Source: Mobula hypostoma (Eukaryota). Taken from it: a stretch of DNA of 64,000 bases. The stretch is taken from contig NC_086097.1 of NCBI RefSeq assembly GCF_963921235.1, forward strand, positions 125,924,001 to 125,988,000. The letters are read 5' to 3'. Positions 2,216 through 58,318 of this stretch are shown in pieces. Each line of letters opens with the position of its first letter. Within the stretch, counting starts at the first letter, position 1. The notes beneath the pieces were generated by a model that was given only the letters and a program-made list of their open reading frames with translations, was not told the origin of the DNA and did not search any database. Both the position numbers and the translations under genes were made by a program.

Positions 2216-2920
2216 AGGGATACGTTAACCAGGATTCCATGAAACAAAGGACACACGCAGTCCTAATGTCCCTCTGATTCAGCACCCTGGCTCTGAGATC
2301 ATCGATTTTATTCACCGGAGACTGCCTGTTCACCAGCAAAATAGTCAGTATAGGAAGTTTAAAACCCTGTTTCCTTAAACGTACTTGTAATCCTGATCTA
2401 TACCCATGCTTCCTCCGAGGTGTCCTCCATGGGCACTTTCGACCACAATCGGTGTTGTTTCCATCGGTTTTAAGCAGCAATAGTTTGTTTAAATGCATTA
2501 AGACATCTTTGTTGACTGTACTGACCTTGGAAGCAGTTGTGCTTTTTAGCTGTACAGGTGTCCCTCGCTTTCCGAACGTTCGCTTTACGACATTTTGCTT
2601 TTATGAAAGACCTACATTAGCACCTGTTTTCGCTAACCGAAAGTGGATTTTCGCTTTTACGAAAAAAGACGCCCACTTTAAACTTGTGTTTACCCTGAGA
2701 AAGACTACCATGACCATGAAGCCTTGCGCAGGCAGGTGTGTGCGCATGCGTGTACGTGCCGATTTTTTTTCTACAGATCGGTTTTGGCTCAATCTTCCCC
2801 GGTTCTGGTAAGTGAAACTACACTGTACAAACATTATTTCTACTTTATATAGGCTGTGTATTTATCATCAAAGTTGCTGGTGAACGCAGCAGGCCAAGCA
2901 GCATCTATAGGAAGAGGCGC

Positions 2921-2956
2921 AGTCGACGTTTCAGGCCGAGACCCTTCGTCAGGACT
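2921..2956 (-). ncRNA. Minimal type I hammerhead ribozyme (mirror copy, UBR5 sense)
   Basis: Exact reverse complement of 2974-3009. Confidence 0.85.
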
Positions 2957-2973
2957 AACTTAGTTAGTTAGTT

Positions 2974-3009
2974 AGTCCTGACGAAGGGTCTCGGCCTGAA
3001 ACGTCGACT
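2974..3009 (+). ncRNA. Minimal type I hammerhead ribozyme
   Basis: AGTC-CTGACGA-AGG(GTCTCGG)CCT-GAAACGTC-GACT: CUGANGA and GAAA core, stems I and II, GUC cleavage triplet ending at 3005. Confidence 0.85.
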
Positions 3010-4629
3010 GCGCCTCTTCCTATAGATGCTGCTTGGCCTGCTGCGTTCACCAGCAACTTTGATGTATGTTGCTTGAATTTCCAGCATCTGCAGAATTCCT
3101 GTTGTTTGTATTTATCATATCATTTTTGCTTTTACTGTATGTTAGTGTTATTTTAGGTTTGTTGTGCTATTTGGTAGGTTATTTTTTTGGGTCTGGGAAC
3201 GCTCAAAAAATTTTCCCATATAAATTAATGGTAACTGCTTCTTCGCCTTACGCCATTTCAGCTTACAAACGGTTTCATAGGAACGCTCTATCTTCAGATA
3301 GCAGGGAAACCTGTATCAGGCTGAAACAGGAATATTTAATCGTATCCATTGAGAGTACTGTTGTTACTTGAGTCTCGCCTAGGCGCCCCAGAAGATTTCC
3401 TGATATAAATTTATGGTTCTTTCCTCTTGGGTCTGCCATTGTTATCACCTCCCTCACAAGTTAACCAATACACATCTCCTCAATGCTTGAGCCTTCCAGT
3501 TTATTTCTTTAGCTCAAGCCAAGCTACATTTCATTCACCATCTCAATCCCAACAACCTGATGGCCTCCTCTGTTGCAGTGACAGATTGGATCTCAAAGAC
3601 AACAAAGTATTCTTCAAGCTGTCCATAGCCTGCATCACTGTCGATCAGATCAATGCCCATCTGGGCACAATGACATTCCATTGATTTGCTTGTTACATAC
3701 ACCTGTTAGGGTGCATTCTCCAGTTACCTTATAAGGTAACCGTAGCCTTCAGCCAGGTACCCAGAATATAGTCAGAACTACCTGCAACAATTCACTTCTA
3801 TCATCAGTAGCTTCCCCCAAGGGCCTATACTTGCCACCACACAGCAAAGCACAGAAAGTTTCTTGGCAACTCCTAACCTTCAAGCAATCAATATATTATT
3901 AGATTGTTTGTGCAATCTTCAAGACTACATAAGCAAATTTCCTTGAAGTATCAGCAAGATCAAACTCGTCAACTTCAGATGCCATAAACTCGGGTTTTTT
4001 AGCCACCAACTAAATCCTGATAGCTGCAACTTAAAGAAATGCCCTTGACTTTGACATCTTGCTTCATTACGAGATGGCCTTGGATGCCTAGAAACATTCA
4101 CTTAGTTCCACCATTTAATAATGCCTCCTCCATTTCCTTTGCTTGTAAACTGCTAACACTAATTCATGCCTTTGTTACCAAAACTTTTGACAATTCAAAC
4201 CTAACCAACGGTCTCTTTACTCCACCTTCAAACTCCAGAAAAAACAAAATTCTTGTTTCATCTAAATTCACTGTGCTCCCATCCATCTGTACCATGCTCT
4301 CCTGATTTTATTATAGCTCTGATGCTGAAGTTTGCTTGGTCATATTTTTGTGATTTAGAATATATTATTATGTCAACAATGTCGTTGAATTAACTGTTGT
4401 AAACATTTAATCTTCATACTTCAATCCTCAAGTACAATATCAAGTTGCAATTTTTTGTGCATGTGCAATTCTAAAATAGAAAAACGTGAAACGAACCCTT
4501 AAAATGCAGTATTCTGAAGATACTAGTAACAGGTGTATGTTTGTTATAGGAATGTTTAAATAAGGAAGCAACAATGCTATACTCTATACCAAATCTTAAA
4601 ATTAACAAGGCCCTCACTTCCTTTGCAAT

Positions 4630-4750: not shown

Positions 4751-7700
4751 CTCGTATTTATGATTTACAAGACCAACTAGACACAAGAAATTTTAGCACA
4801 TATAGGAGTGAATTGACTGGGTTATGAGAGCTGATTGCTTAAATGAGATGATCAATTTAGAAATCAGAGACCATTTCCTGTCATCACAAACATTTCATCT
4901 CCCCTTCCCCCACAAGGAACAGAATGGAATACTGTCCAAACTCATGTCCCAATCGCCTGGTCACAGCTATTGCACTGAATAATTGTGTAGACAATCCTCA
5001 CTGATTTATATGATGCAAATGTCACATTTCACTGTATATTTCAATGTACATGGGACAAATAAAGCTAATCTAATCTTTAATCTTTAAAAATCCACCGCTG
5101 CACTCAGGTGTTTCTGTAACCTTACTAGCTGTCCAAATGGGGCAACTTCCAAATGAAGAGGAAATCCTGTGCACAGTTTTAAGAAATCATTGAAAAACAT
5201 GTTTTAAAAAATGAGAATCTTGATTGACTAACACATAAAATGCATTGGTATATCAACTACAAATTACTATACAAATTATTTGAATCTTTTCAGGATTATC
5301 TTATTTCTTATAATAAAGTTCTAACTTAATGAAACTCTATATAAAATTCCAAAATCACCTTATGAGAAATGGAACACCTGGCTTATTAATGGCTAATCAT
5401 GAAAATCTACAGTTGAGATAGCTTTAATTAACTGTCTGAACAAGACTTTCCACCCACACCATCTCCAAAATACAGTGGCACTCAATGTCTTGATCAAAAA
5501 TTAACAAAATTCAGAACTTTGGAAGAATGTTAACAATACCTCCAATATTTCAATAGCCATCTCTTTCAATTTCTTCTAAAATTCTGGGAAGGCAACGACT
5601 GTAACTCCATTATTTAAGAAAGAGAGGGAGAGAAAAAAAAATGACACAACAAGCCTAACAGTAGTTTTAGGGATGATTCTAAAGTCTATTACAAGGGATG
5701 TGGTATCAAAAAGATTATAGACAAAATCAGCATGGATTTATGAAAATGATAAACAGACCAACAAGTTTCTGAGGATGCGACTTTTGGTACAGATAACAGA
5801 AAACAAGACAATGTGGTTAATTTGCTGAGTATTTAAGGACAGACAAGTATCTGGACACATAAGGCATTAAGCAATATAGGAAGAAAGTGGAAACAGAAGA
5901 TTCTATGGAGTAATGACATATGCTTCTATGGCCCACTCGTTTCTATTTTCTATATTTTTAGAAGTTACAAAATCAAGAGGACCGAATATTATGTACTTCT
6001 TAAGAAATCAAACCACCACGACCTCATAAAGGAAACTTTACCATAATGGATAACTTGTTCTACCACTGAAGTGAACTGAAAATTACTAATCATGTTGAAG
6101 GTAATTCACAATTTATGCCCATTCACACTACACATCATCCAACTGAATGTCTTTTCATTAAATGTCACTGAAAGACTTCAGACGTTTCAACCAGTACTTT
6201 TTTACTGCAGCATTCCCAAAATTACAAGCAACTTCTTTCTGGTGCAAATGTTCATTCAATAATTTAAATGTGACAGACAAAACATGCCATAAAAATTTTT
6301 CTTCTAATTATGAATAATAGTAGCAGAGTAGCAATGAACTGATGCATCCACACAAAAATTTAACAGCTAGTTTGAAAGGAAAACCCACAAAAGACATTAA
6401 AAGAAACTTGCACTCACATAATAATCTACTACTTTGAAAATCAAATAAAACCCTAATGATTTTAATCTACTCATTACAAAGCAATATGCTGGAAATCAAT
6501 TCACAACAGTTATCACGGTCACTAAATCCTGCAATAAGACTAGAATGCAAAGGGGCAAAATCGGTACTTGGTCCACCTTTCAAACATGGCTAAGTTTTTT
6601 TCCGCTCATCCTCACTCTCCCCTTAACTCTTAACCGCTCTGCCAATCCAGAATCTATTCATCTCCACCTTAAATACACCTAACAACTTGCATATGAATTC
6701 CACAGATATCAACCACTAGATGAAAAAAATCCTTATCTGAGTTCTAAAGGGATATCCCTTTATTCTGAAGCTGTTCCCTTGATTCCTAGACTCTCCTACT
6801 AATGAAATTATCTTCTCCATCTCCACTCTATCCAGGCCTTTCGGCAATGTATGCCTTTGCTGAAGTTTCAATTAACAATAGAGCAAAATTCATCTCTGAA
6901 GCAAACTTGTCAAATGATCCATAATTAGCAAAATCACCAAAGAATCTCTCTAGTTCACTAATTTCAGCCAAATGGTAGGAACAATCTGTAGTTCAAACAG
7001 GCAGAGAAAAAAAAATACTACTACCCAAATGACCACTAATGGAAGCTAGAGAATTCTAGAAGTGGAAGATGGATTTGAAAGCTTTCATTCTGCCTGCAAC
7101 CAAGCATACCATGAGGATGTACTGGTTCACAATAATAACCCTTGAACAAGACACCTAGTGAAATCCTATAGGCCTATAATATAGCCACATGTATTGCCTT
7201 CAGAAGCCACAGAAGTTTTTAAAACAAACACATGCCAATTTGAGTTAGCTTTCAAAGTTTTAAATAGTAGCACTATGATTCTTTTGTATTTTTTCCATAT
7301 TAAAAGCATCAACTTAATTTTATACCCATCTGCTAAAATCAGTTTGGACATCTCAATTATTAAAGCAAGTAGTGCTCTATGATAGTATGATGAATATATC
7401 TTGCATTTAAAAATTTATATTTAGGACAAATTTAACATGTGCCACAAGGCCTCTTAAAAACAAAATATTGACAAGGATCCAGTCACTACACTAATTGCTC
7501 TTAATATTACGAGGTTAAGTATTCATCTCAAATATTTTGAAATCTGTTGATTTTTCATTCTTAACACTTCTAAATAGATCAAAGTAAAAGACTGTTTTGA
7601 CCCTATTTCAGATACTTCATTCCATTCTCAGCCTCACACATTTTTGGACCCATATCTAAAATTATGAATTTCATTTTTCACCCTCAAATGACATGTTTAA

Positions 7701-14258: not shown

Positions 14259-14340
14259 CTCCAGAAGAAATGCTGCATGGTTTGGTCCAACCACGCACTG
14301 CTTAATTGTAGCCTGTTCCAAAACATTCAGAGGTGGGTGA
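14259..14340 (-). CDS. UBR5: UBR5 coding exon 3 ((S)HPPLNVLEQATIKQCVVGPNHAAFLLE)
   Basis: TTTTTTCCAG acceptor, GAG|GTAGCG donor, 82 nt, phase 2-0, in frame with exon 2. Confidence 0.95.
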
Positions 14341-21707: not shown

Positions 21708-23034
21708 CTGCAAAGAAACAAGTCTAGTTGAAGCAATGCAATAATAATATTTCAGTTATTTAATGATTTTCCAGCATCCTCTATACAAATTCTGTCTTTC
21801 AGCTTCAATGTTATCTCCCAATATCACATATTATAGTTACATCCACTAATGTTAAAATCATGGAAATTTTTAAACACTGCATGAAGATGCTAAATACAAA
21901 CTTTTCTTCAAACATTACTTTGCTACCATACTAACAATTAATGATTAAAAAAAAATTCCAGTTTTATTTCAAATTTGAATTCTGGACAGGTTCAATATAA
22001 CACTTTTCTAAAAACACACCTAATATTGGAAACAGAATAGTAAAATTAAGTAGCAATGCTTCAATGTTTTTGATCAACTTGGTGCTATAGTATGGCACAT
22101 GTTAACCTCAAGATAAACTTTGCACTTTGTAATCTACCTTTGCAGTAGCCATGAAAACAGCTCCAGTGTACGCTCACCGTACTGTGAAGTAATCCAGTGG
22201 TCCTCAACCACTGGGCTGCGGCCCGGTACCGGGCCGCAAAGCATGTGCTACCGGGCCGTGAGGAAACAATATGATTTGGCAATATGAAACGATAGGAGTC
22301 AGCTGCACCTTTCCTCATTCCCTGTCACGCCCACTGTTGAACTTTAACGCACGCGAGGTCATCAGTGACCCAAGACATGCAAAGGAATGGGTCCGTGGCC
22401 CATTTGTGAATGTTTCCAGTGAATCTTCCATGTCAGCACGGGAAAAAGATCAACTCCTCGAGCTTGCAAATGACGGTGGGCTGAAAAGTATGTTTGACAT
22501 AACATCTCTGCCTGCATTCTGGATCGAAGTCAAGGCTGAATATCCTCAGCTAGCCACGAAAGCACTGAAAACGTTGCTTCCATTTCCAACACCATATCGC
22601 TGCGAAGCGGAGTTTTCTGCAATGAATGCAACGAAAACTAAATTGCGGAATAGACTGGACATAAGGAACCCCCTTCGAGCATCGCTGTCTCCCATCACCC
22701 CTCGATGGCACTGTCTTGTTGCAGGAAAACAAGCCCAGGGCTCCCACTGATTCAGCGATATTGGTGTGTTGCAATGATTTTATATGTTCGTACGAGGAAA
22801 ATATGTGCTGTGTTTAATATCCAAACTTTACTTAAAATGTTATGATGCTATTGACTTATAAGTGACTTATAATTCAGTGGTCCCCAACCTCCGGGCCGTG
22901 AAGAATGCAGCAGTACAGCGGTAGCTGGAATGCACCCAGCACATCTTTAAGAAAAAAGCCGAAATAAACAAGCTACACACATAAAAGTTGCTGGTGAACG
23001 CAGCAGGCCAGGCAGCATCTCTAGGAAGAGGTGC

Positions 23035-23070
23035 AGTCGACGTTTCAGGCCGAGACCCTTCGTCAGGACT
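23035..23070 (-). ncRNA. Minimal hammerhead ribozyme in the Penelope pLTR (UBR5 sense)
   Basis: Identical 36-mer to 2921-2956. Confidence 0.85.
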
Positions 23071-25581
23071 AACTGAAGGAAGAGTGAGTAAGGGATTTGA
23101 AAGTTGGAGGGGGAACGGGAGATCCAAAATGATAGGAGAAGACAGGAGGGGGAGGGATGGAGCCAAGAGCTGGACAGGTAATAGGCAAAAGGGATACGAG
23201 AGGATCATGGGACAGGAGGTCCGGGAAGAAAGACAAGGGGGGAGGGACCCAGAGGATGGGCAAGAGGTATATTCAGAGGGACAGAGGGAGAAAAAAGAGA
23301 GTGAGAGAAAGAATGTGTGTATAAAAATAAGTAACAGATGGACAGATGGGGTACAAGGGTGAGGTGGGGCATTTGCGGAAGTTAGAGAAGTCGACGTTCA
23401 TGCCATCAGGTTGGAGGCTACCCAGACGGAATATAAGGTGTTGTTCCTCCAACCTGAGTGTGGCTTCATCTTTACAGTAGAGGAGGCCGTAGATAGGCAT
23501 GTCAGAATGGGAATGGGATGTAGAATTAAAATGTGTGGCCACTGGGAGATCCTGCTTTCTCTGGCGGACAGAGCGTAGATGTTCAGCAAAGCGGTCTCCC
23601 AGTCTGCGTCGGGTCTCGCCAATATATAAAAGGCCACATCGGGAGCACCGGACGCAGTATATCACCCCAGCCAACTCACAGGCGAAGTGTTGCCTCACGT
23701 GGAAGGACTGTTTGGGGCCCTGAATGGTGGTGAGGGAGGAAGTGTAAGGGTGTGTGTAGCACTTGTTGCGCTTATACGGATAAGTGGGAGATCAGTGGGG
23801 AGGGATGGGGGGGACAAATGGACAAGGGAGTTGCGTAGGGAGCGATCCCTGCGGAATGCACGGGGCGGGGGGAGGGAAAGATGTGCTTAGTGGTGGGATC
23901 CCGTTGGAGGTGGCGGAAGTTACGGAGAATAATATGTTGGACCCGGAGGCTGGTGGGGTGGTAGGTGAGGACCAGGGGAACCCTATTCCTAGTGGGGTGG
24001 CGGGAGGATGGAGTGAGAGCAGATATACGTGAAATGGGGGAGATGCGTTTAAGAGCAGAGTTGATAGTGGAGGAAGGGAAGCCCCTTTCTTTAAAAAAGA
24101 AAGACATCTCCCTCGTCCTAGAATGAAAAGCCTCATCCTGAGAGCAGATGCGGCGGAGACGGAGGAATTGCGAGAAGGGGATGGCGTTTTTGCAAGAGAC
24201 AGGGTGAGAAGAGGAATAGTCCAGATAGCTGTGAGAGTCAGTAGGCTTATAGTAGACATCAGTGGATAAGCTGTCTCCAGAGACAGAGACAGAAAGATCT
24301 AGAAAGGGGAGGGAGGTGTCAAAAATGGACCAGGTAAACTTGAGGGCAGGGTGAAAGTTGGAGGCAAAGTTAATAAAGTCAACGAGTTCTGTATGCGTGC
24401 AGGAAGCAGCGCCAATGCAGTCGTCGATGTAGCGAAGGAAAAGTGGGGGACAGATACCAGAATAGGCACGGAACACAGATTGTTCCACCAAGTTTTCCAA
24501 CAAAAAGGCAGGCATAGGTAGGACCCATACGGGTGCCCATAGCTACACTTTTTGTTTGGAGGAAGTGGGAGGAGCCAAAGGAGAAATTATTAAGAGTAAG
24601 GACTAATTCCGCTAGACGGAGCAGAGTGGTGGTAGAGGGGAACTGATTAGGTCTGGAATCCAAAAAGAAGCGTAGAGCTTTGAGACCCTCGGGATGGAAG
24701 TATATAGGGACTGGACATCCATGGTGAAAATAAAGCGGTGGGGGCCAGGGAACTTAAAATCATCGAAAAGTTTAAGAGCGTGAGAAGTGTCACGAACATA
24801 GGTCGGAAGGGATTGAACAAGGGGGGATAAAACCGTGTCGAGGTATGCAGAAACGAGTTCGGTGGGGCAGGAGCAAGCTGAGACAATAGGTCGGCCAGGA
24901 CAGGCAGGTTTGTGGATCTTGGGTAGGAGGTAGAAACGGGAAGTGCGGGGTGTGGGAACTATAAGGTTGGTAGCAGTGGATGGGAGATCCCCTGAGCAGA
25001 TAAAGTCGGTGATGGTGTGGGAGACAATGGTCTGGTGCTCCTTAGTGGGGTCACGATCGAGGGGTAAATAAGAGGAGGTATCCGCGAGTTGTCGCTGTGC
25101 CTCGGCAAGGTAGAGGTCAGTACGCCAGACTACAACAGCACCCCCCTTATCGGCGGGTTTAATAATAGGGTTAGGATTAGTGCGGAGGGATGGAGAGCAG
25201 AGCATTCCGAAGGAGTGAGGTTGGAATGGGGACAAGGTGCAGTGAAGTCGAGACGGTCGATGTCCCGTCGGCAGTTAGCGATAAAGAGATCCAGAGCAGG
25301 CAGAAGACCAGAGCGGGGTGTCCATGAAGAAGAGGAGGGTTGAAGACGGGAGAAGGGGTCATCGGTGGGGGTGGAAGAGTCCTTGCCGAAGAAGTAGGCT
25401 CGGAGACGGAGACGGCGGAAGAAAAGTTCCGCATCATGGCGAACACGGAACTCGCTGAGATGTGGGCGAAGGGGGACAAAGGTGAGGCCCTTACTGAGGA
25501 CAGAGCGTTCTGCCTCCGACAGTTGAAGGTCAGAGGGGATGGTAAAGATCCGGCACGGATGAGAGCTGGGATCGGGGGGCG

Positions 25582-25972
25582 GGGGGGAGGCTGGGGGTGT
25601 CAATGGAGAGGGGAGGGTTGGGGTGAGAGGAGGATGGAGCCTCTGAGGGCCCAGGAGCTGACGGTCAGATCTGGGGGAGATGGGATTGCAGAGTATTGCT
25701 GGGGGAAGGGGAGATGGGAGTCACAATAGCAGCACATAAAGACCCGGCCTGGAGTTCAAGGCTGGAATCTTGAGAGCTGGGGTGGGAGGGGGGAGGCTGG
25801 GGGTGTCAATGGAGAGGGGAGGATTGGGGTGAGAGGAAGATGGAGCCTCTGAGGGCCCAGGAGTTGATGGTGGGATCTGAAGGAGACGGGGTTGCAGAGT
25901 GGTGGTGGGGGAAGGGGAGACGGGAGTCACAACAGCAGCACATAAAGACCCGGCCTGGAGCTCAAGGCTGGA
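25582..25972. repeat. 206-bp-period tandem duplication in the Penelope Pro/Ser-rich linker
   Basis: ~25582-25766 aligns to ~25788-25972 at a constant offset of 206 with scattered substitutions. Confidence 0.9.
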
Positions 25973-27146
25973 GTTGCAGTTGGTGGTTGCGCAATCACTT
26001 TGAATGTGTCCATGGTCGTTGCTGGAGTCCAGATTTTGAATATGCCCTGAGGTGTTGGAGCCGGCGAGATCAATGGCAGGGGCCGCAATCCCAAGTTCAT
26101 GCCTGCTAGTTTCATGGCCAGCAGGCTCTGGAGTCCGTAGATGTATGATCTTGCGATCTTTGCCTAACATGACAAAGTCAAAAAAACGGCGATTGCAGGC
26201 GTGAATCCGACGGAGGATGAAATAACGGGTGGGACCATTACAGATGGCGAAGAAAGTGTCCCGAAGGTATGGAAGGGTCTGGGATAGGGACACCAAGTAC
26301 CTCCTCATGGCGGAGAGAGTTGCCTTCAGAGCTTGATGGGATAAGCGGCGAGAGGCAGAGTCAATAAAATGTGAGTACCTGGGATCCTCAGAAGGTCCAA
26401 ATTGAGAGGCTTGGAAACGAATCCTAAAGCCAACTGGAGTAAGTTGGCGACGGAGGCACATTCCAAGAAAGGATATATGGCTGTGATAGCGAGTCCGAGT
26501 CAAAGTGTGGTCGAAAAGTTGAAGAGCCGAAGAAATTACAGATGGGGAGCAGTGAGAGATGGTTTCACTGAACTCCTGTCGAAGAGAGGATCTAAACTTC
26601 TTCGGTGTAGGCATCACCGGAAGATTGCGTCGCCTCTGATCTGGGCCGACATTTACATGCCGGGTAGCACCTAATCAACTAGCTTGTTTATTTCGGCTTT
26701 TTTCTTAAAGATGTGCTGGGTGCGTTCCGGCCACCACTGTACTGCTGCATTCATCGTGGCAATGTATCAGTCCGCGGCCTGGAGGGTTGGGACCACTGTT
26801 ATAATCCACTTATCACTATATTCATGCGAGGAAAATATGCGTTGTGTGTTTAATATTAAATTTGTTAGATAAATCCTTTTAGAAACGAAATTGAGTGTAT
26901 TAGCCACTTATAAGAGACTTATAACCTATATTCCAGTTGTGTCCAGTTGTGATTAACACCTACCCCACCCCCCGGTCCAAAAATATTGTCAATATTAAAC
27001 TGGTCCACGGTGCAAAAAAGGTTGGGGACCCCTGAAGTAATCTGTATATTTGAATATTTAGATTTCATCTTACACTTTTCCTTTATCAAATTAGAGGCTG
27101 CTCCATGTATAACATGACATTGCTAAAATATCCCTGTTAAAAATAG

Positions 27147-39879: not shown

Positions 39880-40560
39880 CAGCCACCCATCAGGCCCAGC
39901 AAGCCTCGGCGACGAGCCACCTCGGCGCAAACCAGAGCAGTTCCTTTGTGAACCTCCTCCCCCCACCCCCACCCCTTCCCCTTCCCCTTCCCCCTCCCCC
40001 GGGCCTGAGTGCGCACTGCTCACCTGTCGTTGAGCTGATCCTCGGTGCCCGGTAGGGGATGCACCACGAAGTGAATGGACGTCATCGTCGGCTGGAAGGG
40101 GAGAGTAACCGGCCGAACCCGCGCGGCGCTAGCCTAGACTAGGGGGAAAAGAGACCGAAGCAGGGGCCCAGGGAGCGAAAACAAATAGATAAATCAATGC
40201 TGAATGAAGTTAATTCCTTTGAATGTTTTTGAAGCTCCCCAAACGTTTGTAGCCAGACGGCTTATTCTTTTTTTTGGACACCCGCCGCTTCAGCAAGCAG
40301 TCGCCGCCATCTTACTGTTGATGAGCCCTCACAATAAAAGCTACCTCGGTATTGGTTGCGCTCACTCGCCTAACTGCCGCATCTAACAAGCTACGCGATT
40401 GGTCACTGCTGAAGGCGAGTGAAGGAGAAGACGAAAAAAACATTGGGCGCAGTTCAGGTGACGCGTAACTGGCCATGTGACTGCGGGTCAGCCGACGGCC
40501 ATTGTTAGGGGCGGACACATGACAGAAGGAGGGCCTTAAATATCAACTTCAAAGCTCCCC
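39880..40560 (-). promoter_or_regulatory. UBR5: UBR5 CpG-island promoter and 5' UTR
   Basis: CpG-rich against an AT-rich background; YY1 motif GCCGCCATCTT 40303-40313; three CCAAT boxes on the minus strand (ATTGG at 40351, 40398, 40442); CRE-like TGACGC 40459; GC box GGGGCGG 40508. Confidence 0.85.
40024..40085 (-). CDS. UBR5: E3 ubiquitin-protein ligase UBR5, coding exon 1 ([20 protein letters not shown] + AG)
   Basis: Manual translation matches the vertebrate UBR5 N-terminus as I recall it; 62 nt, ends phase 2 at AG|GTGAG donor; lies in a CpG island. Confidence 0.96.
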
Positions 40561-41029: not shown

Positions 41030-43503
41030 AATAGAAGGGAGAATTTGAAAAGAAGACAGATTTATAGAACGGGCGTCAGAGGAGCGGGAAACAGAGTAGG
41101 AAGGCTTTGGCTCAACGGGGCTTCGGCGATAAAGGGTCAAGGCCAGGTAGGTTATCTGCTTAGAATACAGACAAGATATGTGCGTGAGGCCAGTTTTCTG
41201 TGCTCGGTGTCAGATGTGGGAGGTCCTGGAGACTCCCAGACGACCACATCTGTACCAGGTGTGTTGAGCTGCAGCTCCTTAGGGACCATGTTAGGGAACT
41301 GGAGCTGCCGCTCAGTGACCTTTGTCTGGTCAGGGAGAGTGAGGAGGTGATAGAGAGGAGTTTTAGGAAGGTAGTCAACCCAGGACCACAGGAGGCAGAG
41401 AAGTGGGCAACAGTCAGGAGAGGGAAGGGCAAGAAGCAGGTGCTAGATAGTACCCCAGTGGCTGTCCCCCTTAACAATAAGTTCTCCTGCTTGAGTACTG
41501 TTGGGGGGGATGGCCTACCTGGGGGAAGCAACAGTGGTCGCACCTCTGGCTTAGATTCTGGCCCTGTGGCTCAGAAGGGTAGGGAAAGGAAGAGGATGGC
41601 AGCAGTGATAGGGGACTCAATAGTTAGGGGGTCAGACAGGCGATTCTGTGGATGCAGGAAAGAAACACGGATGCGCTTCCCAGGTGCCAGAGTCTGGGAC
41701 ATTTCTGATCACGTCCACGATATCTTGGTGTGGGAGAACAGCCAGAGGTCGTGGTACATATTGGTACTGACATAGGTAAGAAAAGGGAGGAGGTCCTGAA
41801 AACAGACTACAGGGAGTTAAGAAAGAAGTTGAGAAGCAGGACCGCAAAGGTAGAAATCACGGGATTACTGTCTGTGCCACATGACAGCGAGTATAGGAAT
41901 AGAATGAGATGGAGGATAAATGCGTGGCTGAGGGATTGGAGCAGGGGGCAGGGATTCAGATTTCTGGATCATTGGGACCTCTTCTGGGGCAGTTGTGACC
42001 TGTACAAAAAGGACGGTTTGCACTTGAATCCAAGGGGGACCAATATCCTCGCAGGAAGTTTTGCTAAGGCTATTGGGGAGAGTTTAAACTAGAATTGCAG
42101 GGGGATGGGATCCGAACTGAAGTGACGGAGGAAATGGAGGTTGGCTCACAACTAGAGAAAGCTTGGAGATAGTGCGAAAGGGAGGATAGGCAGGTGATAG
42201 AGAAGGGATACGCTCAGACCGATGGTTTGAGATGTATCTATTTTAATGCAAGGAATATTATGAATAAAGCAGATGAGCTTAGAGCGTGGATCAGCACTTG
42301 GAGCTATGATGTCGTGGCCATTACAGAGACTTGAATGGTGCAGGGGCAGGAATAGCTACTTCAAGTGCCAGTCATTAGATGTTTTAGAAAGGATAGGGAG
42401 GGAGGCAAAAGGGGTGGGGCCATGGCACTGTTGAACAGAGATAGTGTCATGGCTGCAGAAAAGGAGGATTTCATGGAGGGGTTGTCTACGGAGTCTCTGT
42501 GGGTGGAAGTTAGGAATAGGAAGGGGTCAATAACTCTGCTGGGTGTTTCTTATAGACCACCCAATAGTAACAGGGACATCGAGGAGCAGATAGGGAGACA
42601 GATTCTGGAAAGGAGTAATAATAACAGGGTTGTTGTGGTGGGAGATTTTAATTTCCCAAATATTGATTGGCATCTCCCTAGAGTGAGGGGTTTAGATGGG
42701 GTAGAGTTTGTCAGGTGTGTTCAGAAAGGTTTCTTGACACAATATGTAGATAAGCCTACAAGAGGAAAGGCTGTACTTGATCTGGTATTGGGAAATGAAC
42801 CTGGTCAGGTGTCAGGTCTCTCAGTGGGAGAGCATTTTAGAGATAGTGAACACAGTTCTATCTCCTTTACCATAGCATTGCAGAGGGATAGGAACAGACA
42901 AGTTCGGGAAACATTTAATTGGAGTAAGGGGAAATATGAGGCTATCAGGCAGGAAGTTGGAGCATAAATTGGAAACAGATGTTCTCGAGTAAACGTACGG
43001 AAGAAATGTGGCAAATGTTCAGGGGATATTTGCGTGGGGTTCTGCGTAGGTACGTTCCAATGAGACATGGAAAGGATGGTAGGGTACAAGATCTGTGGTG
43101 TACAAAGGCTGTTGTAAATCTAGTCAAGAAGAAAAGAAGAGCTTACGAAAGGTTCAAAACACTAGGTAATGATAGGAATCTAGAAGATTATAAGGCTAGC
43201 AGGAAGGAGCTTGAGAATGAAATTAGTAGAGTCAGAAGGGGCCATGAGAAGGCCTTGGCGGACAGGATTAAGGAAAACCCCAAGGCATTCTACAAGTATG
43301 TAAAGAGCAAGAGGATAAGACGTGAGAGAATAGGACCAATCAAGTGTGTATGGAACTGGAGGAAATAGCGGAGGTACTTAATGAATACTTTGGGTCAGTA
43401 TTCACTACAGAAAAGGATCTTGGCGATTGTAGGGATGACTTACAGTGGACTGAAAAGCTTGAGAAAGTAGATATTAAGGAGGATGTGCTGGAGCTTTTTG
43501 GAA
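41030..43503 (+). mobile_element. CR1 LINE 5' half: ORF1 (Zn finger, SGNH esterase), ORF2 APE and linker; RT missing
   Basis: HICTRC, VIGDSIVRG, HIGT, DGLHLN; YRPPN, GDFNFP, LDLVL, NPKAFYKYV; several stops and frameshifts. Confidence 0.93.
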
Positions 43504-44339: not shown

Positions 44340-44990
44340 AAAGAACAATCACAAAATTCTGGAGGAACTCAGCAGAACAGGTAGCATCTATGGAGGGGAA
44401 TAAGTGGTCAACATTTTGGGCTGAGACCCTTCATCAGAACTAGAAAGGAAGGGGAAAGGAACCAGAATAAGAAGGTAGGGGATGGGAAGGAGTACAAACT
44501 GGTAAGTAATCGGTGAAACTAGGTTAGGGGAAGGTAGGTGGGAAGGCTTATGAAGTGAGAAGCTGGGAGGTGATAGGCAGAAGAGGTAAAGGGCTGAAGA
44601 AGAACAAATCTGACTGGAGAAGACAGTGGACCATGGGAGAACGGGAAGGGAGGGGGGTACCAGATGTACAGTAGGTGATGGGTAAGTGAGGACAAAAGAA
44701 TGGGTAAGAAGAAAGCCAGAATAGGGAATGGAAAAAGTGAGGAGGATGAGGGACAGAAATAACAGAAGTTAGAGAAATCAATGTTCATGCTATCAGCTTG
44801 TAGGATACACAGAGGAATAAGGGGTGTTGCTCCTCCAACCTGAAACTGACCTCATCGTTGCAGTAGAGGATGAGCATGTTGGAATGGGAATGGGAATAGG
44901 AAGTGGAATTAAAATGAGTGACTACCAGGAAAACTCAACTTTGGAGGCGGTTGGAACAAAGATGCTCGTCGAAGTGGTCTTCCGATCAGT
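44340..44990 (-). mobile_element. Older Penelope 3' fragment with decayed hammerhead (~44407-44440)
   Basis: Homologous to 22980-23600 (MNIDFSNF); core reads CTGATGA..CAAAATGTT in place of GAAACGTC. Confidence 0.8.
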
Positions 44991-49129: not shown

Positions 49130-49680
49130 TGATCATGGGCACTAGCCTCCCCAGCATCGAAGATATCTTCAAATAGCGATACATCATTAACACAGCATCC
49201 ATCATTAAGAAATCCCATCACCAAGGACGTGCTGTCTTCTCATTGCTGCCATCGGGGAGGAGGTACAGGGGTCTGAGGAAACACACTCTACGTTTTAGAA
49301 ACAGGTTTTTACCGCCTCCGCCATCAGATTTCCGAACAGGCGGTGAATCCGTGTACCACACACAAAATGCTGGAGGAACTCAGCAGGCCAGGTTGCAACT
49401 TTTGGGAAAGAAACCACAGTCGATGTTTCCGGCTGAGACCCAGCATTGTGTGTGTGTTGCTTGGATTTCCAGCAACTGCAGATTTTCTCTTGTTTGTGAA
49501 TCCATGTACACTACCTAACTATTCTGTTTTTACAGCTTTCTTTTTGACCTAGTTACTTAATTTAAATTTTTATTATTACTTTTATTGTAATTTATAATTT
49601 TTAAAATTATGTGCTGCTGCTGTAAAACAACAAATTTCAAGACACATGGCAATGATATTAAGCCTGATTCTGATTTTGGC
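49130..49680 (+). mobile_element. Rex-type 3' end carrying a small Penelope pLTR insert (~49357-49497)
   Basis: LPSGRRYRGLR peptide; insert flanked by GTGAATCC(G/A)TGTAC direct repeats. Confidence 0.65.
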
Positions 49681-54302: not shown

Positions 54303-57300
54303 GGCCTGTGGAAGCGGCCAGTGAGTGAGTGGCCCAGTGAAGGAGTGGAGCTTTGAGGCTTTGACTCGAGAGGCTTCGACGAGAAGAGGTGGAGGACGAG
54401 CTTGCTCCCAGTTAGTCTTTACAATGTCTCCTGAGATGGTGATGTGCTTCTCATGTGAGATGTGGGAGTCTTGGGGGAACACCCCTCTCCCACAGAGTCA
54501 CATCTGCCAGAAATGCATGCGGCTGGGCGATCTGGAAGACCGTGTAAGGAATCTGGAGCAGCAGCTGGATGACCTTCGACTCATGAGGGAGAATGAGGCA
54601 GTCATAGATGAGAGCTACAGGGAGGTAGTCACACCTAGGCTGTCGGAAGCAGGTCGTTGGGTGACAGTCAGAGGGGAGAAAGCGAAGGGGAGCAGACAGG
54701 TAGTGCAGAGCACCCCTGTAGCCATTTCCCTGAATAATAAGTTTACCGTCCCGGATACTGTTGGCAGGGACAACCGACCAAGTGTGAGCCACTGTGGCAG
54801 GGCCTCTGGCACTGAGTCTGACCCGGTGGTGCAAAACATGGGATGGAGAAGAGGAGAGCTGTTGTCATTGGAGACTCTATAGTCAGGGGAACAGACAGGA
54901 GATTTTGTGGACGTGAGAAGGACACCCGCATGGTTTGTTGCCTCCTGGGTGCCAGGGTCCGGGATGTCTCTGACCGGGTGCACGACATCCTGGTACGACA
55001 GGGAAAGCAACCAGAAGTCATGATACATGTTGGGACCAACGACATAGGCAGGAAGAGGGATGAGGTCCTGAAGTGTGAGTTTTAGGAACTAGGCAGAAGG
55101 CTGAAGAACAAGACCTCAAGGGTGGCGTTCTCAGGATTGCTGCCAGTGCTACGTGACAGTGATGATAAAAATTGGAGGAGATGGCAGTTGAATGTGTGGC
55201 TGAGGATTTGGTGCAGGGAGCAGGGTTTTAGATTTTTGGATCATTGGGATCTCTTCTGGGGAAGGTGGGAGCTGTACAGATTGGATGGGTTGCACCTGAA
55301 CCCAAGGGGGAGCAATTCAGGAGGGTTTGAACTAATCTGCAAGGGGGATGGGACCCGGAGCGATGGAGCAGTGAAAGAAGTGCATGGAGTAAAGCCAGAT
55401 CTAACATGTAGAGAGATTTGAGGAAAGAGAAGCAGAATAAACAGTGTAAAGACAGTAAGGTAGAAGGGCTGAAATGTGTGTACCTCAATGCAAGAAGCAT
55501 CAGGAACAAAGGTGATGAACTGAGAGCTTGGATTCATACATGGAATTATGATGAAGTGGCCATTACAGAGACTTGGCTGGCACCAGGGCAGGAATGGATT
55601 CTCAATATTCCTGGATTTCAGTGCTTTAAAAGGGATAGAGAGGGCGGAAAAATGGGAGGAGAGGTGGCATTACTGGTCAGGGATACTATTACAGCTACAG
55701 AAAGGGTGGGTAATGTAGCAGAATCCTCTTTTGAGTCAGTATGGGTGGAAGTCAGGAACAGGAAGGGAGCAGTTACTCTATTGGGGGTATTCTATAGGCT
55801 CCCTGGTAGCAGCAGAGATACAGAGGAGCAGATTGGGAGGCAGATTTTGGAAAGGTGCAAAAATAACAGGGTTGTTATCATGGGTGACTTTAACTTCCCT
55901 AATATTGATTGGCACCTGATTAGTTCCAAGGTTTTAGATGGGGCAGAGTTTGTTAAGTGTGCCCAGGACGAATTCCTGTCACAGTATGTGGACAGGCCGA
56001 CTCGGGGGAATGCCGTACTAGATCTAGTACCAGGTAATGAACCAGGTCAGGTCACAGATCTCTCAGTGGGTGAGCATCTGGGGGACAGTGACCACCGCTC
56101 CCTGGCCTTTAGCATTATCATGGAAAAGGATAGAATCAGAGAGGACAAGAAAATTTTTAATTGGGGAAGGGCAAATTATGAGGCTACAAGGCTAGAACTT
56201 GCGGGTGTGAATTGGGATGATATTTTTGCAGGGAAATGTACTATGGACATGTGGTCGATGTTTAGAGATCTCTTGCAGGACGTTAGGGATAAATTTGTCC
56301 CGGTGAGGAAGATAAAGAATGGTAGGGTGAAGGAACCATGGGTGACAAGTAAGGTGGAAAATCTAGTCAGGTGGAATAAGGCAGCATACATGAGGTTTAG
56401 GAAGCAAGGATCAGATGGGTCTATTGAGGAATATAGGGAAGCAAGAAAGGAGCTTAAGAAGGAGCTGAGAAGAGCAAGTAGGGGGCATGAGAAGCCTTGG
56501 TGAGTAGGGTAAAGGAAAACCCCAAGGCATTCTTCAATTATGTGAAGAAAAAAAGGATGACAGGAGTGAAGGTAGGACTGATTAGAGATAAAGGTGGGAA
56601 GATGTGCCTGGAGGCTGTGGAAGTGAGCGAGGTCCTCAATGAATACTTCTCTTTGGTATTCACCAATGAGAGGGAACTTGATGATGGTGAGGACAATATG
56701 AGTGAGGTTGATGTTCTGGAGCATGTTGATATTAAGGGAGAGGAGGTGTTGGAGTTATTAAAATACATTAGGACGGATAAGTCCCCGGGGCCTGACGGAA
56801 TATTCCCCAGGCTGCTCCACGAGGCGAGGGAAGAGATTGCTGAGCCTCTAGCCAGGATCTTTATGTCCTCGTTGCCCACGGGAATGGTACCAGAAGACTG
56901 GAGGGAGGCGAATGTTGTCCCCTTGTTCAAAGAAGGTAGTAGGAATAGTCTGGGTAATTATAGACCAGTGAGTCTTACGTCTGCGGTGGGAAAGCTGTTG
57001 GAAAAGATTCTTAGAGATAGGATCTATGGGCATTTAGAGAATCATGGTCTGATCAGGGACAGTCAGCATGACTTTGTGAAGGGCAGATCGTGTTTAACAA
57101 GCCTGATAGAGTTCTTTGAGGAGGTGACCTGGCATATAGATGAGGGTAGTGCAGTGGATGTGATCTATATGGATTTTAGTAAAGCATTTGACAGGGTTCC
57201 ACACAGCAGGCTTATTCAGAAAGTCAGAAGGCATGGGATCCCGGGAAGTTTGGTCAGGTGGATTCAGAATTGACTTGCCTGCAGAACGCAGAGGGTTGTG

Positions 57301-58318
57301 GTGGAGGGAGTACATTCGGATTGGATGATTGTGACTAGTGGTGTCCCACAAGGGTCTGTTCTGGGACCTCTACTTTTCGTGATTTTTATTAACGACCTGG
57401 ATGTGGGGGTAGAAGGGTGGGTTGGCAAGTTTTCAGACGACACAAAGGTTGGTGGTGTTGTAGATAGTGTAGAGGATTGTCAAAGATTGCAGAGAGACAT
57501 TGATAGGATGCAGAAGTGGGCTGAGAAGTGGCAGATGGAGTTCAACCCAGAAAAGTGTGAGGTGGTACACTTTGGAATGACAAACTCCAAGGCAGAGTAC
57601 AAAGTAAATGGCAGGATACTTGGTAGTGTGGAGAAGCAAAGGGATCTGGGGGTACATGTCCACAGATCCCTGAAAGTTGCTTCACAGGTGGATAGGGTAG
57701 TTAAGAAAGCTTATGGGGTGTTAGCTTTCATAAGTCGAGGGATAGAGTTTAAGAGTCGCGAGGTAATGATGCAGCTCTACAGAAGTCTGGTTCGGCCACA
57801 CTTGGAGTACTGTGTCCAGTTCTGGTCACCTCACTATAGGAAGGATGTGGAAGCATTGGAAAGGGTACAGAGGAGATTTACCAGGATGCTGCCTGGTTTA
57901 GAGAGTATGCATTATGATCAGAGATTAAGGGAGCTAGGGCTTTACTCTTTGGAGAGAAGGAGGATGAGAGGAGACATGATAGAGGTGTACAAGATAATAA
58001 GAGGAATAGATAGAGTGGATAGCCAGCGCCTCTTCCCCAGGGCACCACTGCTCAGTACAAGAGGACATGGCTTTAAGGTAAGGGGTGGGAAGTTCAAGGG
58101 GGATTTTAGAAGAAGGTTTTTTATTCAGAGAGTGGTTGGTGCATGGAATGCACTGCCTGAGTCAGTGGTGGAGGCAGATACACTAGTGAAGTTTAAGAGA
58201 CTACTAGACAGGTATATGGAGGAATTTAAGTTGGGGGCTTATGTGGGAGGCAGGATTTGAGGGTTGGCACAACGTTGTGGGCCAAAGGGCCTGTACTGTG
58301 CTGTACTATTCTATGAAT
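54303..58318 (+). mobile_element. Essentially full-length CR1 LINE, inactivated
   Basis: ORF1 CFSC..HICQKC, GDSIV, HVGTND, DGLHLN; ORF2 APE (YLNARSI, ITETWL, GDFN), RT (SGVPQGSVLGP, FSDD), C-terminus and ATTCTATG tail; frameshift ~56500 and TGA at 57271. Confidence 0.95.

What the first reader, a model, noticed from the sequence alone, without database searches (positions are those of the whole stretch)
2866..3064. Perfect palindrome of two back-to-back hammerhead ribozymes in a UBR5 intron
Seen: 95-bp arms without mismatch, each with an intact CUGACGA/GAAAC-GUC core and stems I and II, bounded by a clean 12-bp TSD and with no coding sequence. Known: Penelope-like elements carry minimal hammerheads in their pLTRs and often insert with an inverted partial pLTR. 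Inference: this is a very young insertion, or a mobile non-coding ribozyme unit. Either strand yields one ribozyme plus its perfect antisense, so the transcript could self-cleave during transcription or fold into a 95-bp dsRNA hairpin (ADAR/Dicer substrate).
Basis: partly seen in the sequence, partly recalled or inferred. Interest (0 to 1): 0.8.

Follow-up and report, generated by a model that had tools for sequence, protein, structure and literature searches.

The report
Mirror-image Penelope retrotransposon stub
This 238-base DNA palindrome, likely in an intron of the UBR5 gene, matches the ribozyme-bearing end of an abundant Penelope-like jumping gene and has that group's known 'inverted copy plus one-sided tail' layout, and its ribozyme motifs are predicted to be locked in a hairpin and inactive, so it is ordinary transposon debris.

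Summary
The palindrome is real: 95-bp perfect arms, a 9-nt spacer, a 42-nt tail on one side only and an 11-12-bp TSD, confirmed by empty sites in paralogues of the host MITE. It is not a separate ribozyme element. The same unit (100 of 106 nt identical) ends a decayed 3.65-kb GIY-YIG-encoding Penelope-like element (PLE) in this window, and an older insertion at 49.4 kb has the same layout with other breakpoints. Inverted pLTR, one-sided tail and TSD, and opposite-strand minimal hammerheads 100-700 bp apart, are published PLE features. The hammerheads are the dimer-only minimal type. On either strand the antisense arm is transcribed first, and forming the ribozyme stems costs a predicted 57-74 kcal/mol, so self-cleavage is very unlikely. 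UBR5 reads the minus strand, so C3005 is on the wrong strand for its pre-mRNA. A 95-bp intronic dsRNA is predicted but untested. Identical arms do not prove youth. Likely origin: both cut target ends prime reverse transcription at two internal sites and the cDNAs are joined head to head. The scan's earlier notes report the same kind of insertion many times, in this and other genomes.

The parts
2857..2868 (+). Target-site duplication, left copy (11-12 bp; last 3 nt also read as the outer end of the inverted arm)
   Evidence: paralogues of the host MITE carry it once (tables 5 and 7)
2866..2960 (-). Inverted, tail-less copy of the PLE end unit (unit nt 1-95); sense in the UBR5 transcript
   Evidence: 91 of 95 identical to the long PLE end
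2921..2956 (-). Minimal hammerhead motif, copy on the UBR5 strand; C17 is opposite G2925
   Evidence: sequence; mirror of 2974-3009
2961..2969 (+). 9-nt spacer: T plus two extra AGTT units, absent upstream of the unit in the long PLE; likely slippage at the junction
   Evidence: covered exactly by contigs 2942-2992 and 2942-2989
2970..3064 (+). Direct copy of the PLE end unit (unit nt 1-95)
2974..3009 (+). Minimal hammerhead motif: stem I 2974-2977/3006-3009, core 2978-2984, stem II 2986-2997, GAAA 2998-3001, palindromic ACGU 3001-3004, C17 = 3005
   Evidence: sequence, numbered against PMC4209133
3065..3106 (+). One-sided 42-nt PLE tail
   Evidence: 39 of 45 identical to the tail of the 49.4-kb insertion
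3107..3118 (+). Target-site duplication, right copy
2555..3313 (.). Host: a roughly 510-bp TA-flanked MITE-like repeat with terminal inverted repeats, split by the PLE insertion (superfamily Tc1/mariner-like, recalled)
   Evidence: ends; high depth; joints 2549 to 3311 in 4 of 4 runs
22969..26620 (-). Decayed near-full-length PLE of the same family: frameshifted RT-like frames, degenerate Cys linker, GIY-YIG endonuclease, then the same hammerhead unit; 5' boundary set by eye
   Evidence: (PF01541, 23.6 bits, cut-off 22.6)
49343..49509 (.). Older insertion with the same layout: 13 of 14-bp TSD, inverted tail-less arm 49357-49441, direct tail 49446-49495
14259..14339 (-). UBR5 exon 3 coding part (human residues 37-63); ends in a GT donor 11.1 kb upstream of the insertion in transcript direction
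40023..40085 (-). UBR5 exon 1 coding part (residues 1-21)

Best explanation
This is a 238-bp head-to-head insertion of the hammerhead-bearing end of an abundant Penelope-like retrotransposon, likely built during integration when both 3' ends of a staggered cut primed reverse transcription of the element's RNA, and its ribozymes are predicted to be inactive inside a 95-bp hairpin. Shown: identity to the end of a GIY-YIG-encoding PLE, inverted tail-less arm, direct arm with a 42-nt tail, TSD. Inferred steps: (1) the PLE endonuclease cuts AT-rich DNA in a MITE with an 11-12-nt stagger; (2) one end primes at the distal internal start site (unit nt 137-138, giving the tail) and the other at the proximal site (unit nt 92-95, no tail, 3-nt microhomology); (3) both cDNAs stop at unit nt 1, 8 nt before the hammerhead core, probably the RNA's 5' end, and one slips on the AGUU repeat; (4) the two cDNA ends are joined and filled in. 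In the UBR5 pre-mRNA the insert would form a passive intronic dsRNA hairpin, possibly edited by ADAR, with no evidence of function.
For: Unit is 100 of 106 identical to the 3' end of the 22969-26620 element, which has a GIY-YIG domain and 103 homologues at E <= 0.001 among 129 candidates, with named ones from a skate and a stingray. A second insertion in the window has the same layout, a 13 of 14-bp TSD, other inner breakpoints and an outer arm end within about 4 nt of this one relative to the tail. Empty MITE paralogues show the TSD once (loose ends at 2868 in 4 of 4 runs, at 3107 in 2 of 4 as listed). The exact centre is covered at depth 11.1 and 7.7, against 9.4 for a unique flank contig in the first of these runs, while 12,328 contigs match the 270-nt stretch exactly in that run. 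The 15 listed inverted joints (of 174) all differ, and all 15 have one side within unit nt 1-22. Forcing hammerhead stems I and II costs 57-74 kcal/mol at 14 of 14 transcript lengths tested, against 4.6-8.8 in the long PLE without an antisense arm. Published: inverted 5'-truncated copy and 30-40-bp one-sided tail (PMC8557442, passages); inverted pLTR, 31-bp tail and 9-10-bp TSD (PMC3846280, passages); both strands cut and extended, two internal RT start sites bounding the tail, hammerhead inactive without protein and not needed for insertion (PMC11167929, parts 1-2 of 4); single minimal hammerheads do not cleave (PMC4209133, parts 1-2 of 4).
Against: The two-primer step is not shown: identical arms fit a single-cDNA fold-back just as well, and the centre can also be parsed as a 1-nt-loop hairpin plus an 8-nt duplication. 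The matching outer end rests on 2 insertions. The 15 joints are a tool-chosen subset, visible only when both sides fall on my stretch, and may include library chimeras. The loop contigs have under 31 nt on each side, below the tool's bridging rule, and both runs are one sample that may be the assembly's source. The RT-like frames got no Pfam or PDB hit. Folding is equilibrium at each length, not kinetics. The tail (42 nt) is slightly longer than the published 30-40.
Confidence: 0.88

Rival explanations
1. Same PLE origin, but the mirror arm is made by self-priming: one cDNA (or an antisense template) folds back at the AACT/AGTT palindrome and copies itself, then joins the target through the 3-nt microhomology.
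For: The centre holds a short palindrome; the arms are identical; PMC3846280 (passage) reads head-to-head junction palindromes as self-priming on an antisense template.
Against: The outer end of the tail-less arm falls at nearly the same place in 2 of 2 inverted insertions in the window, as expected for the second RT start site of PMC11167929. A fold-back copy has no reason to stop there.
Confidence: 0.3
2. An independently mobile, non-coding two-ribozyme unit (retrozyme- or MITE-like) that is copied as a whole palindrome.
For: Clean TSD, no coding capacity, intact motifs; flanking centre pieces reach depth 22-46, so a few other loci share parts of the AGTT-rich centre.
Against: The full centre is at about single-copy depth; listed junctions differ 15 of 15; the tail lies outside the inverted repeat; the copies are opposed, not tandem; a coding master element with the same end is in the window.
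Confidence: 0.05
3. The ribozyme cleaves the UBR5 pre-mRNA during transcription or in trans and affects UBR5 expression.
For: Core nucleotides are intact; PMC11167929 shows that a PLE hammerhead cleaves when the PLE protein is present.
Against: Dimer-only stem III; one sense copy per strand; antisense made first; sense-antisense duplex -97.9 against double hammerhead -8.3 kcal/mol for 45-mers.
Confidence: 0.03
4. Assembly or library fold-back artefact.
For: Perfect palindromes of a high-copy repeat are prone to such errors; no laid contig spans the whole insert.
Against: A TSD that restores the empty MITE sequence, a one-sided tail, return to the right flank, an aged second example with the same layout, and exact centre k-mers in two runs.
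Confidence: 0.04

Closest known systems
Endonuclease-bearing PLE insertions with inverted pLTR, tail and TSD (Pen2a_Av and others, PMC3846280; Fig. 2 of PMC8557442; passages read)
   Same: Head-to-head inverted 5'-truncated copy, tail at one end only, short TSD, palindrome at the junction.
   Different: No ORF body at all: only 95 + 137 nt of the end unit, both arms stopping at the same nucleotide; tail 42 nt against 30-40; TSD 11-12 bp against 8-10.
Minimal hammerheads of metazoan PLEs (PMC4209133, parts 1-2 of 4 read)
   Same: Type I core, 4-5-bp helix I, extra nucleotide after A9, palindromic 15.2-16.2, no loop 3; the paper already notes pairs 100-700 bp apart on opposite strands.
   Different: Helix II is short (3-4 bp) and opens with G-U rather than the usual G-C; the two cores are only 25 nt apart and fully complementary.
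Poseidon of Anolis carolinensis, PAc (PMC11167929, parts 1-2 of 4 read)
   Same: AT-rich target, both strands cut and extended, tail equal to the stretch between two internal RT start sites.
   Different: PAc is Penelope/Poseidon clade; relatives of this family carry the Cys linker of Neptune/Nematis. The inverted-arm step was not reconstituted there.
Non-LTR retrozymes (PMC7229834, search listing only; bioRxiv 10.64898/2026.07.22.740005, listing and passages)
   Same: Non-coding, type I hammerhead, PLE-related.
   Different: Retrozymes are tandem, same-orientation repeats; this is a single opposed pair.
L1 twin priming (recalled; not read here)
   Same: Second target end primes internally on the RNA and gives a 5' inversion.
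   Different: In L1 the two segments cover different parts of the RNA; here both copy the same stretch.

Membership tests
EN+ Penelope-like element insertion | Sequence belongs to the terminal repeat of an element encoding a GIY-YIG endonuclease downstream of RT | tested here: met
   100 of 106 nt identical to the end of 22969-26620; PF01541 above cut-off
EN+ Penelope-like element insertion | PLE-type reverse transcriptase in the master element | tested here: inconclusive
   No Pfam hit for 4 of 4 upstream frames and no PDB hit; a YIDD motif is visible (role recalled); 1 of 103 homologues of the endonuclease frame carries PF00078 and 2 carry PF26215. No RT tree built.
EN+ Penelope-like element insertion | Inverted 5'-truncated copy adjacent at the 5' end | tested here: met
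EN+ Penelope-like element insertion | 30-40-bp tail at one end only | tested here: met
   42 nt, right side only; same in the 49.4-kb copy
EN+ Penelope-like element insertion | Target-site duplication, single in the empty site | tested here: met
   empty paralogous MITE copies (the orthologous empty allele was not seen)
Neptune/Nematis clades of PLE | CX2-5CxxC linker before GIY-YIG | tested here: inconclusive
   Window copy keeps 1 of 3 Cys; 11 of 11 aligned homologues (11 of 103 chosen by rank and length) keep all three
Minimal hammerhead (min-HHR) of PLEs | Core C3-U4-G5-A6-N7-G8-A9, G12-A13-A14, A15.1-U16.1, H17 with helix I and helix II | tested here: met
   sequence 2974-3009
Minimal hammerhead (min-HHR) of PLEs | Palindromic 15.2-16.2 and no loop 3 (dimer requirement) | tested here: met
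   ACGU at unit nt 32-35
Minimal hammerhead (min-HHR) of PLEs | Extra nucleotide after A9 and G10.1-C11.1 pair (usual, not in the published descriptor) | tested here: inconclusive
   Extra A present; the pair is G-U in that register, A-U in the other
Minimal hammerhead (min-HHR) of PLEs | Self-cleavage | not testable with these tools
   Predicted blocked in this context
Non-LTR retrozyme or other independently mobile unit | Tandem same-strand hammerhead monomers | tested here: not met
   One sense copy per strand
Non-LTR retrozyme or other independently mobile unit | Many loci with the same whole structure | tested here: not met

The most novel reading that the evidence does not exclude
The family is mobilised mainly from a short RNA that starts 8 nt before the hammerhead core (not at the cut site), and each insertion is built by two cDNAs primed from the two target ends at the two internal start sites and joined head to head. 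Stubs like this one would then be a genomic record of the unsolved second-end step of Penelope transposition, and would seed host introns with perfect dsRNA hairpins that trap the element's own ribozyme.
Probability: 0.4. Interest if true: 0.45.

Novelty: new member of a known kind. Interest (0 to 1): 0.17.

Why it matters
As a single locus it matters little: it is one stub of a very abundant PLE family in a published layout. Its value is as a clean specimen. Both ends, the TSD, the empty site and both stop points can be read, so such stubs, counted genome-wide, can test how PLEs make inverted pLTRs, a step the in vitro work (PMC11167929) left unvalidated. It also warns that intact hammerhead motifs in a palindrome do not imply cleavage, because the antisense arm is always transcribed first in head-to-head insertions.

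Tried and rejected
No whole genome was held, so no genome-wide count was possible. Rfam: no hammerhead model matched; the MIR6136 hit (63.2 bits, gathering 99) is hairpin-driven and was rejected. Isolated arms fold no better than shuffles and the MFE is not the hammerhead. Exact 31-nt core pattern in metagenome contigs: 0 hits. Scan notes by sequence: 0. Sequencing runs: no RNA holder listed, so expression and editing are untested. The left flank junction (2853-2860) had no exact cover in any of 4 runs, and no loop-crossing contig was listed for organism B; the tool warns that holes prove nothing, so presence or absence is undecided. Summed depth over the variant-rich part 3015-3023 is far higher relative to single-copy depth in organism A than in B, a hint of a recent subfamily, but summed depth is not a copy number. 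Joints next to the cut site (2924 to 2980; 2952 to 3006) could reflect cleaved templates, but C3005-G3006 is a CpG and 4 nt fit both sides, so I did not use them. No TSD or inverted arm was found for the old copies at 4.6 kb and 44.4 kb. Paper search 'Penelope' + 'twin priming' gave 3 papers, none about PLE mechanism by title or abstract start; a search on Penelope in cartilaginous fish genomes gave 7 (6 listed), none on these stubs by title. The library lacks most subscription journals and I read no supplements, so absence from print is not established.

Full report
Observation. The inverted repeat is exact: arms 2866-2960 and 2970-3064, 95 of 95 complementary, 9 nt apart, folding as RNA with z = -31 against 200 shuffles. 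The only direct repeat of 7 nt or more between the two ends is the 12-mer at 2857-2868 and 3107-3118. The insert is therefore 2869-3106 and includes a 42-nt stretch (3065-3106) outside the palindrome, on the right only. Each arm carries a type I hammerhead motif with a 4-5-bp stem I, the CUGACGA core, a short stem II, GAAA and C17 (C3005 on plus; the C opposite G2925 on minus). Stem III is only ACGU, a palindrome with no loop. No Rfam hammerhead model matches.

Host gene. UBR5 exon 1 (40023-40085) and exon 3 (14259-14339) are identical to human UBR5 residues 1-21 and 37-63 and lie on the minus strand. Exon 3 ends in a GT donor 11.1 kb before the insert in transcript direction. Recalled motifs for the next exons found nothing between positions 1 and 14,200, so intron 3 is inferred, not shown. 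The pre-mRNA would carry the minus-strand copy, not the C3005 site.

What the unit is. The 138-nt unit (2970-3107) matches 22969-23074 on the minus strand at 100 of 106 nt. That is the 3' end of a 3.65-kb frameshifted element whose last frame hits GIY-YIG PF01541 just above the cut-off. Its four upstream frames got no Pfam hit and the 256-aa one no PDB hit, although a YIDD motif is visible (role recalled). The endonuclease frame has 103 homologues among 129 candidates, with named ones from Leucoraja erinacea and Hypanus sabinus, which fits a skate or ray host (inference). All 11 aligned homologues keep the CX2-5CxxC linker that marks Neptune and Nematis in PMC8557442 (passages); the window copy keeps 1 of 3 Cys. 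Three older copies of the unit lie at 4.6, 44.4 and 49.4 kb. The 49.4-kb one repeats the layout: 13 of 14-bp TSD, inverted tail-less arm, direct copy with tail, other inner breakpoints. The other two showed no TSD or inverted arm.

Real insertion, single locus. The insert sits in a TA-flanked MITE-like repeat (2555-3313). In public contigs, paralogues of that repeat run from the left flank through one copy of the 12-mer into sequence like the right flank (loose ends at 2868 in 4 of 4 runs; at 3107 in 2 of 4 as listed; joint 2852 to 3107 in one run), so the repeat is a true TSD. At 100% identity, contigs 2942-2992 (depth 11.1) and 2942-2989 (depth 7.7) cover the centre in two runs of one sample of organism A; a unique flank contig in the first run has depth 9.4. 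They have fewer than 31 nt on each side, so they do not meet the tool's bridging rule, and the sample may be the assembly's source. By contrast 12,328 and 14,331 contigs match the 270-nt stretch exactly in those runs. Of 174 joints, 15 were shown; they are head-to-head junctions of the family, all different, and all 15 have one side within unit nt 1-22. That subset is tool-chosen and may include chimeras. Together this argues against both an artefact and a unit copied whole.

Can it cleave? PMC4209133 (parts 1-2 of 4) reports that such minimal motifs are built to work as dimers, that a single motif showed no cleavage and dimers only little, and that pairs 100-700 bp apart on opposite strands occur. 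PMC11167929 (parts 1-2 of 4) found a PLE hammerhead inactive without the element's protein and not needed for insertion. Here each strand has one sense copy, and on both strands the antisense arm is transcribed first. At 7 transcript lengths per strand, from the moment stem I is complete, the core is paired to the antisense arm with probability 1.000 and forcing stems I and II costs 57-74 kcal/mol; in the long element, without an antisense arm, it costs 4.6-8.8. A double hammerhead of two 45-mers scores -8.3 against -97.9 for the sense-antisense duplex. These are equilibrium predictions. The hairpin is the expected product; whether it is edited or diced is untested.

Age. Zero differences in 107 paired sites (arms plus TSD) has probability 0.34 at 1% divergence and a 95% upper bound of 2.8%. 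At 7x10^-10 per base per generation (epaulette shark, PMC10587355, passages; another species) that is up to about 2x10^7 generations. The insertion may be young, but identity does not show it.

Mechanism. PMC8557442 and PMC3846280 (passages) describe inverted 5'-truncated copies, a 30-40-bp tail at one end and 8-10-bp TSDs as typical. PMC11167929 shows cleavage and extension of both target strands at AT-rich DNA and two internal RT start sites that bound the tail. The simplest reading (inferred) is a staggered cut whose two 3' ends prime at those two sites, giving one tailed and one tail-less cDNA in opposite orientation. Both stop at unit nt 1, where the long element continues with different sequence; the spacer is T plus two more AGTT units, as expected from slippage at a template end. 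The rival is self-priming fold-back, favoured in PMC3846280; the centre allows it. The similar outer end in 2 of 2 inverted insertions favours two priming events, about 0.6 to 0.3. The idea that the stop point is the RNA's 5' end I took from earlier scan notes and tested only partly.

Prior art and verdict. The layout and the motif are published. The scan's notes list 8 similar findings in other genomes and 8 shown of 1,692 matching notes in this genome; these are unchecked AI notes, not support. I found no paper on two-ended priming in PLEs in the held library, which is incomplete; supplements were not read. Verdict: a real but ordinary PLE stub, new member of a known kind, interest 0.17.

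Noticed in passing
window 49343-49509: Older head-to-head PLE insertion with a 13 of 14-bp TSD, tail-less inverted arm and tailed direct copy; hammerhead core lost.
   Followed up: yes
window 22969-26620: Near-full-length frameshifted PLE with a 206-bp internal tandem duplication (25560-25972), lacking most of its tail, sitting inside a repeat with long inverted arms that is itself within a DNA-transposon-like remnant; the right part of that host's centre is missing.
   Followed up: partly
window 2924/2980 and 2952/3006 (joints): Family junctions at depth about 170-215 fall next to the hammerhead cut site; could be cleaved templates, CpG decay or microhomology chimeras.
   Followed up: no
window 3015-3023: The exact internal variant has summed depth 488,222 in organism A against 22,546 in organism B although single-copy depth is 9.4 against 53: a hint of a lineage-specific subfamily burst.
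   Followed up: no
window 44365-44920: Older, diverged 3' fragment of a related PLE (endonuclease end plus hammerhead unit, 72-78% identity).
   Followed up: partly
window 6831-6992, minus strand: Stop-free frame with a stretch that resembles a small-GTPase G5 motif (recalled); possibly a pseudogene fragment or chance.
   Followed up: no
window 54325-58260 and 41188-42967: Two decayed LINE-like elements with AP endonuclease and RT frames (Pfam hits for 55412-56500 and 57274-58257).
   Followed up: no
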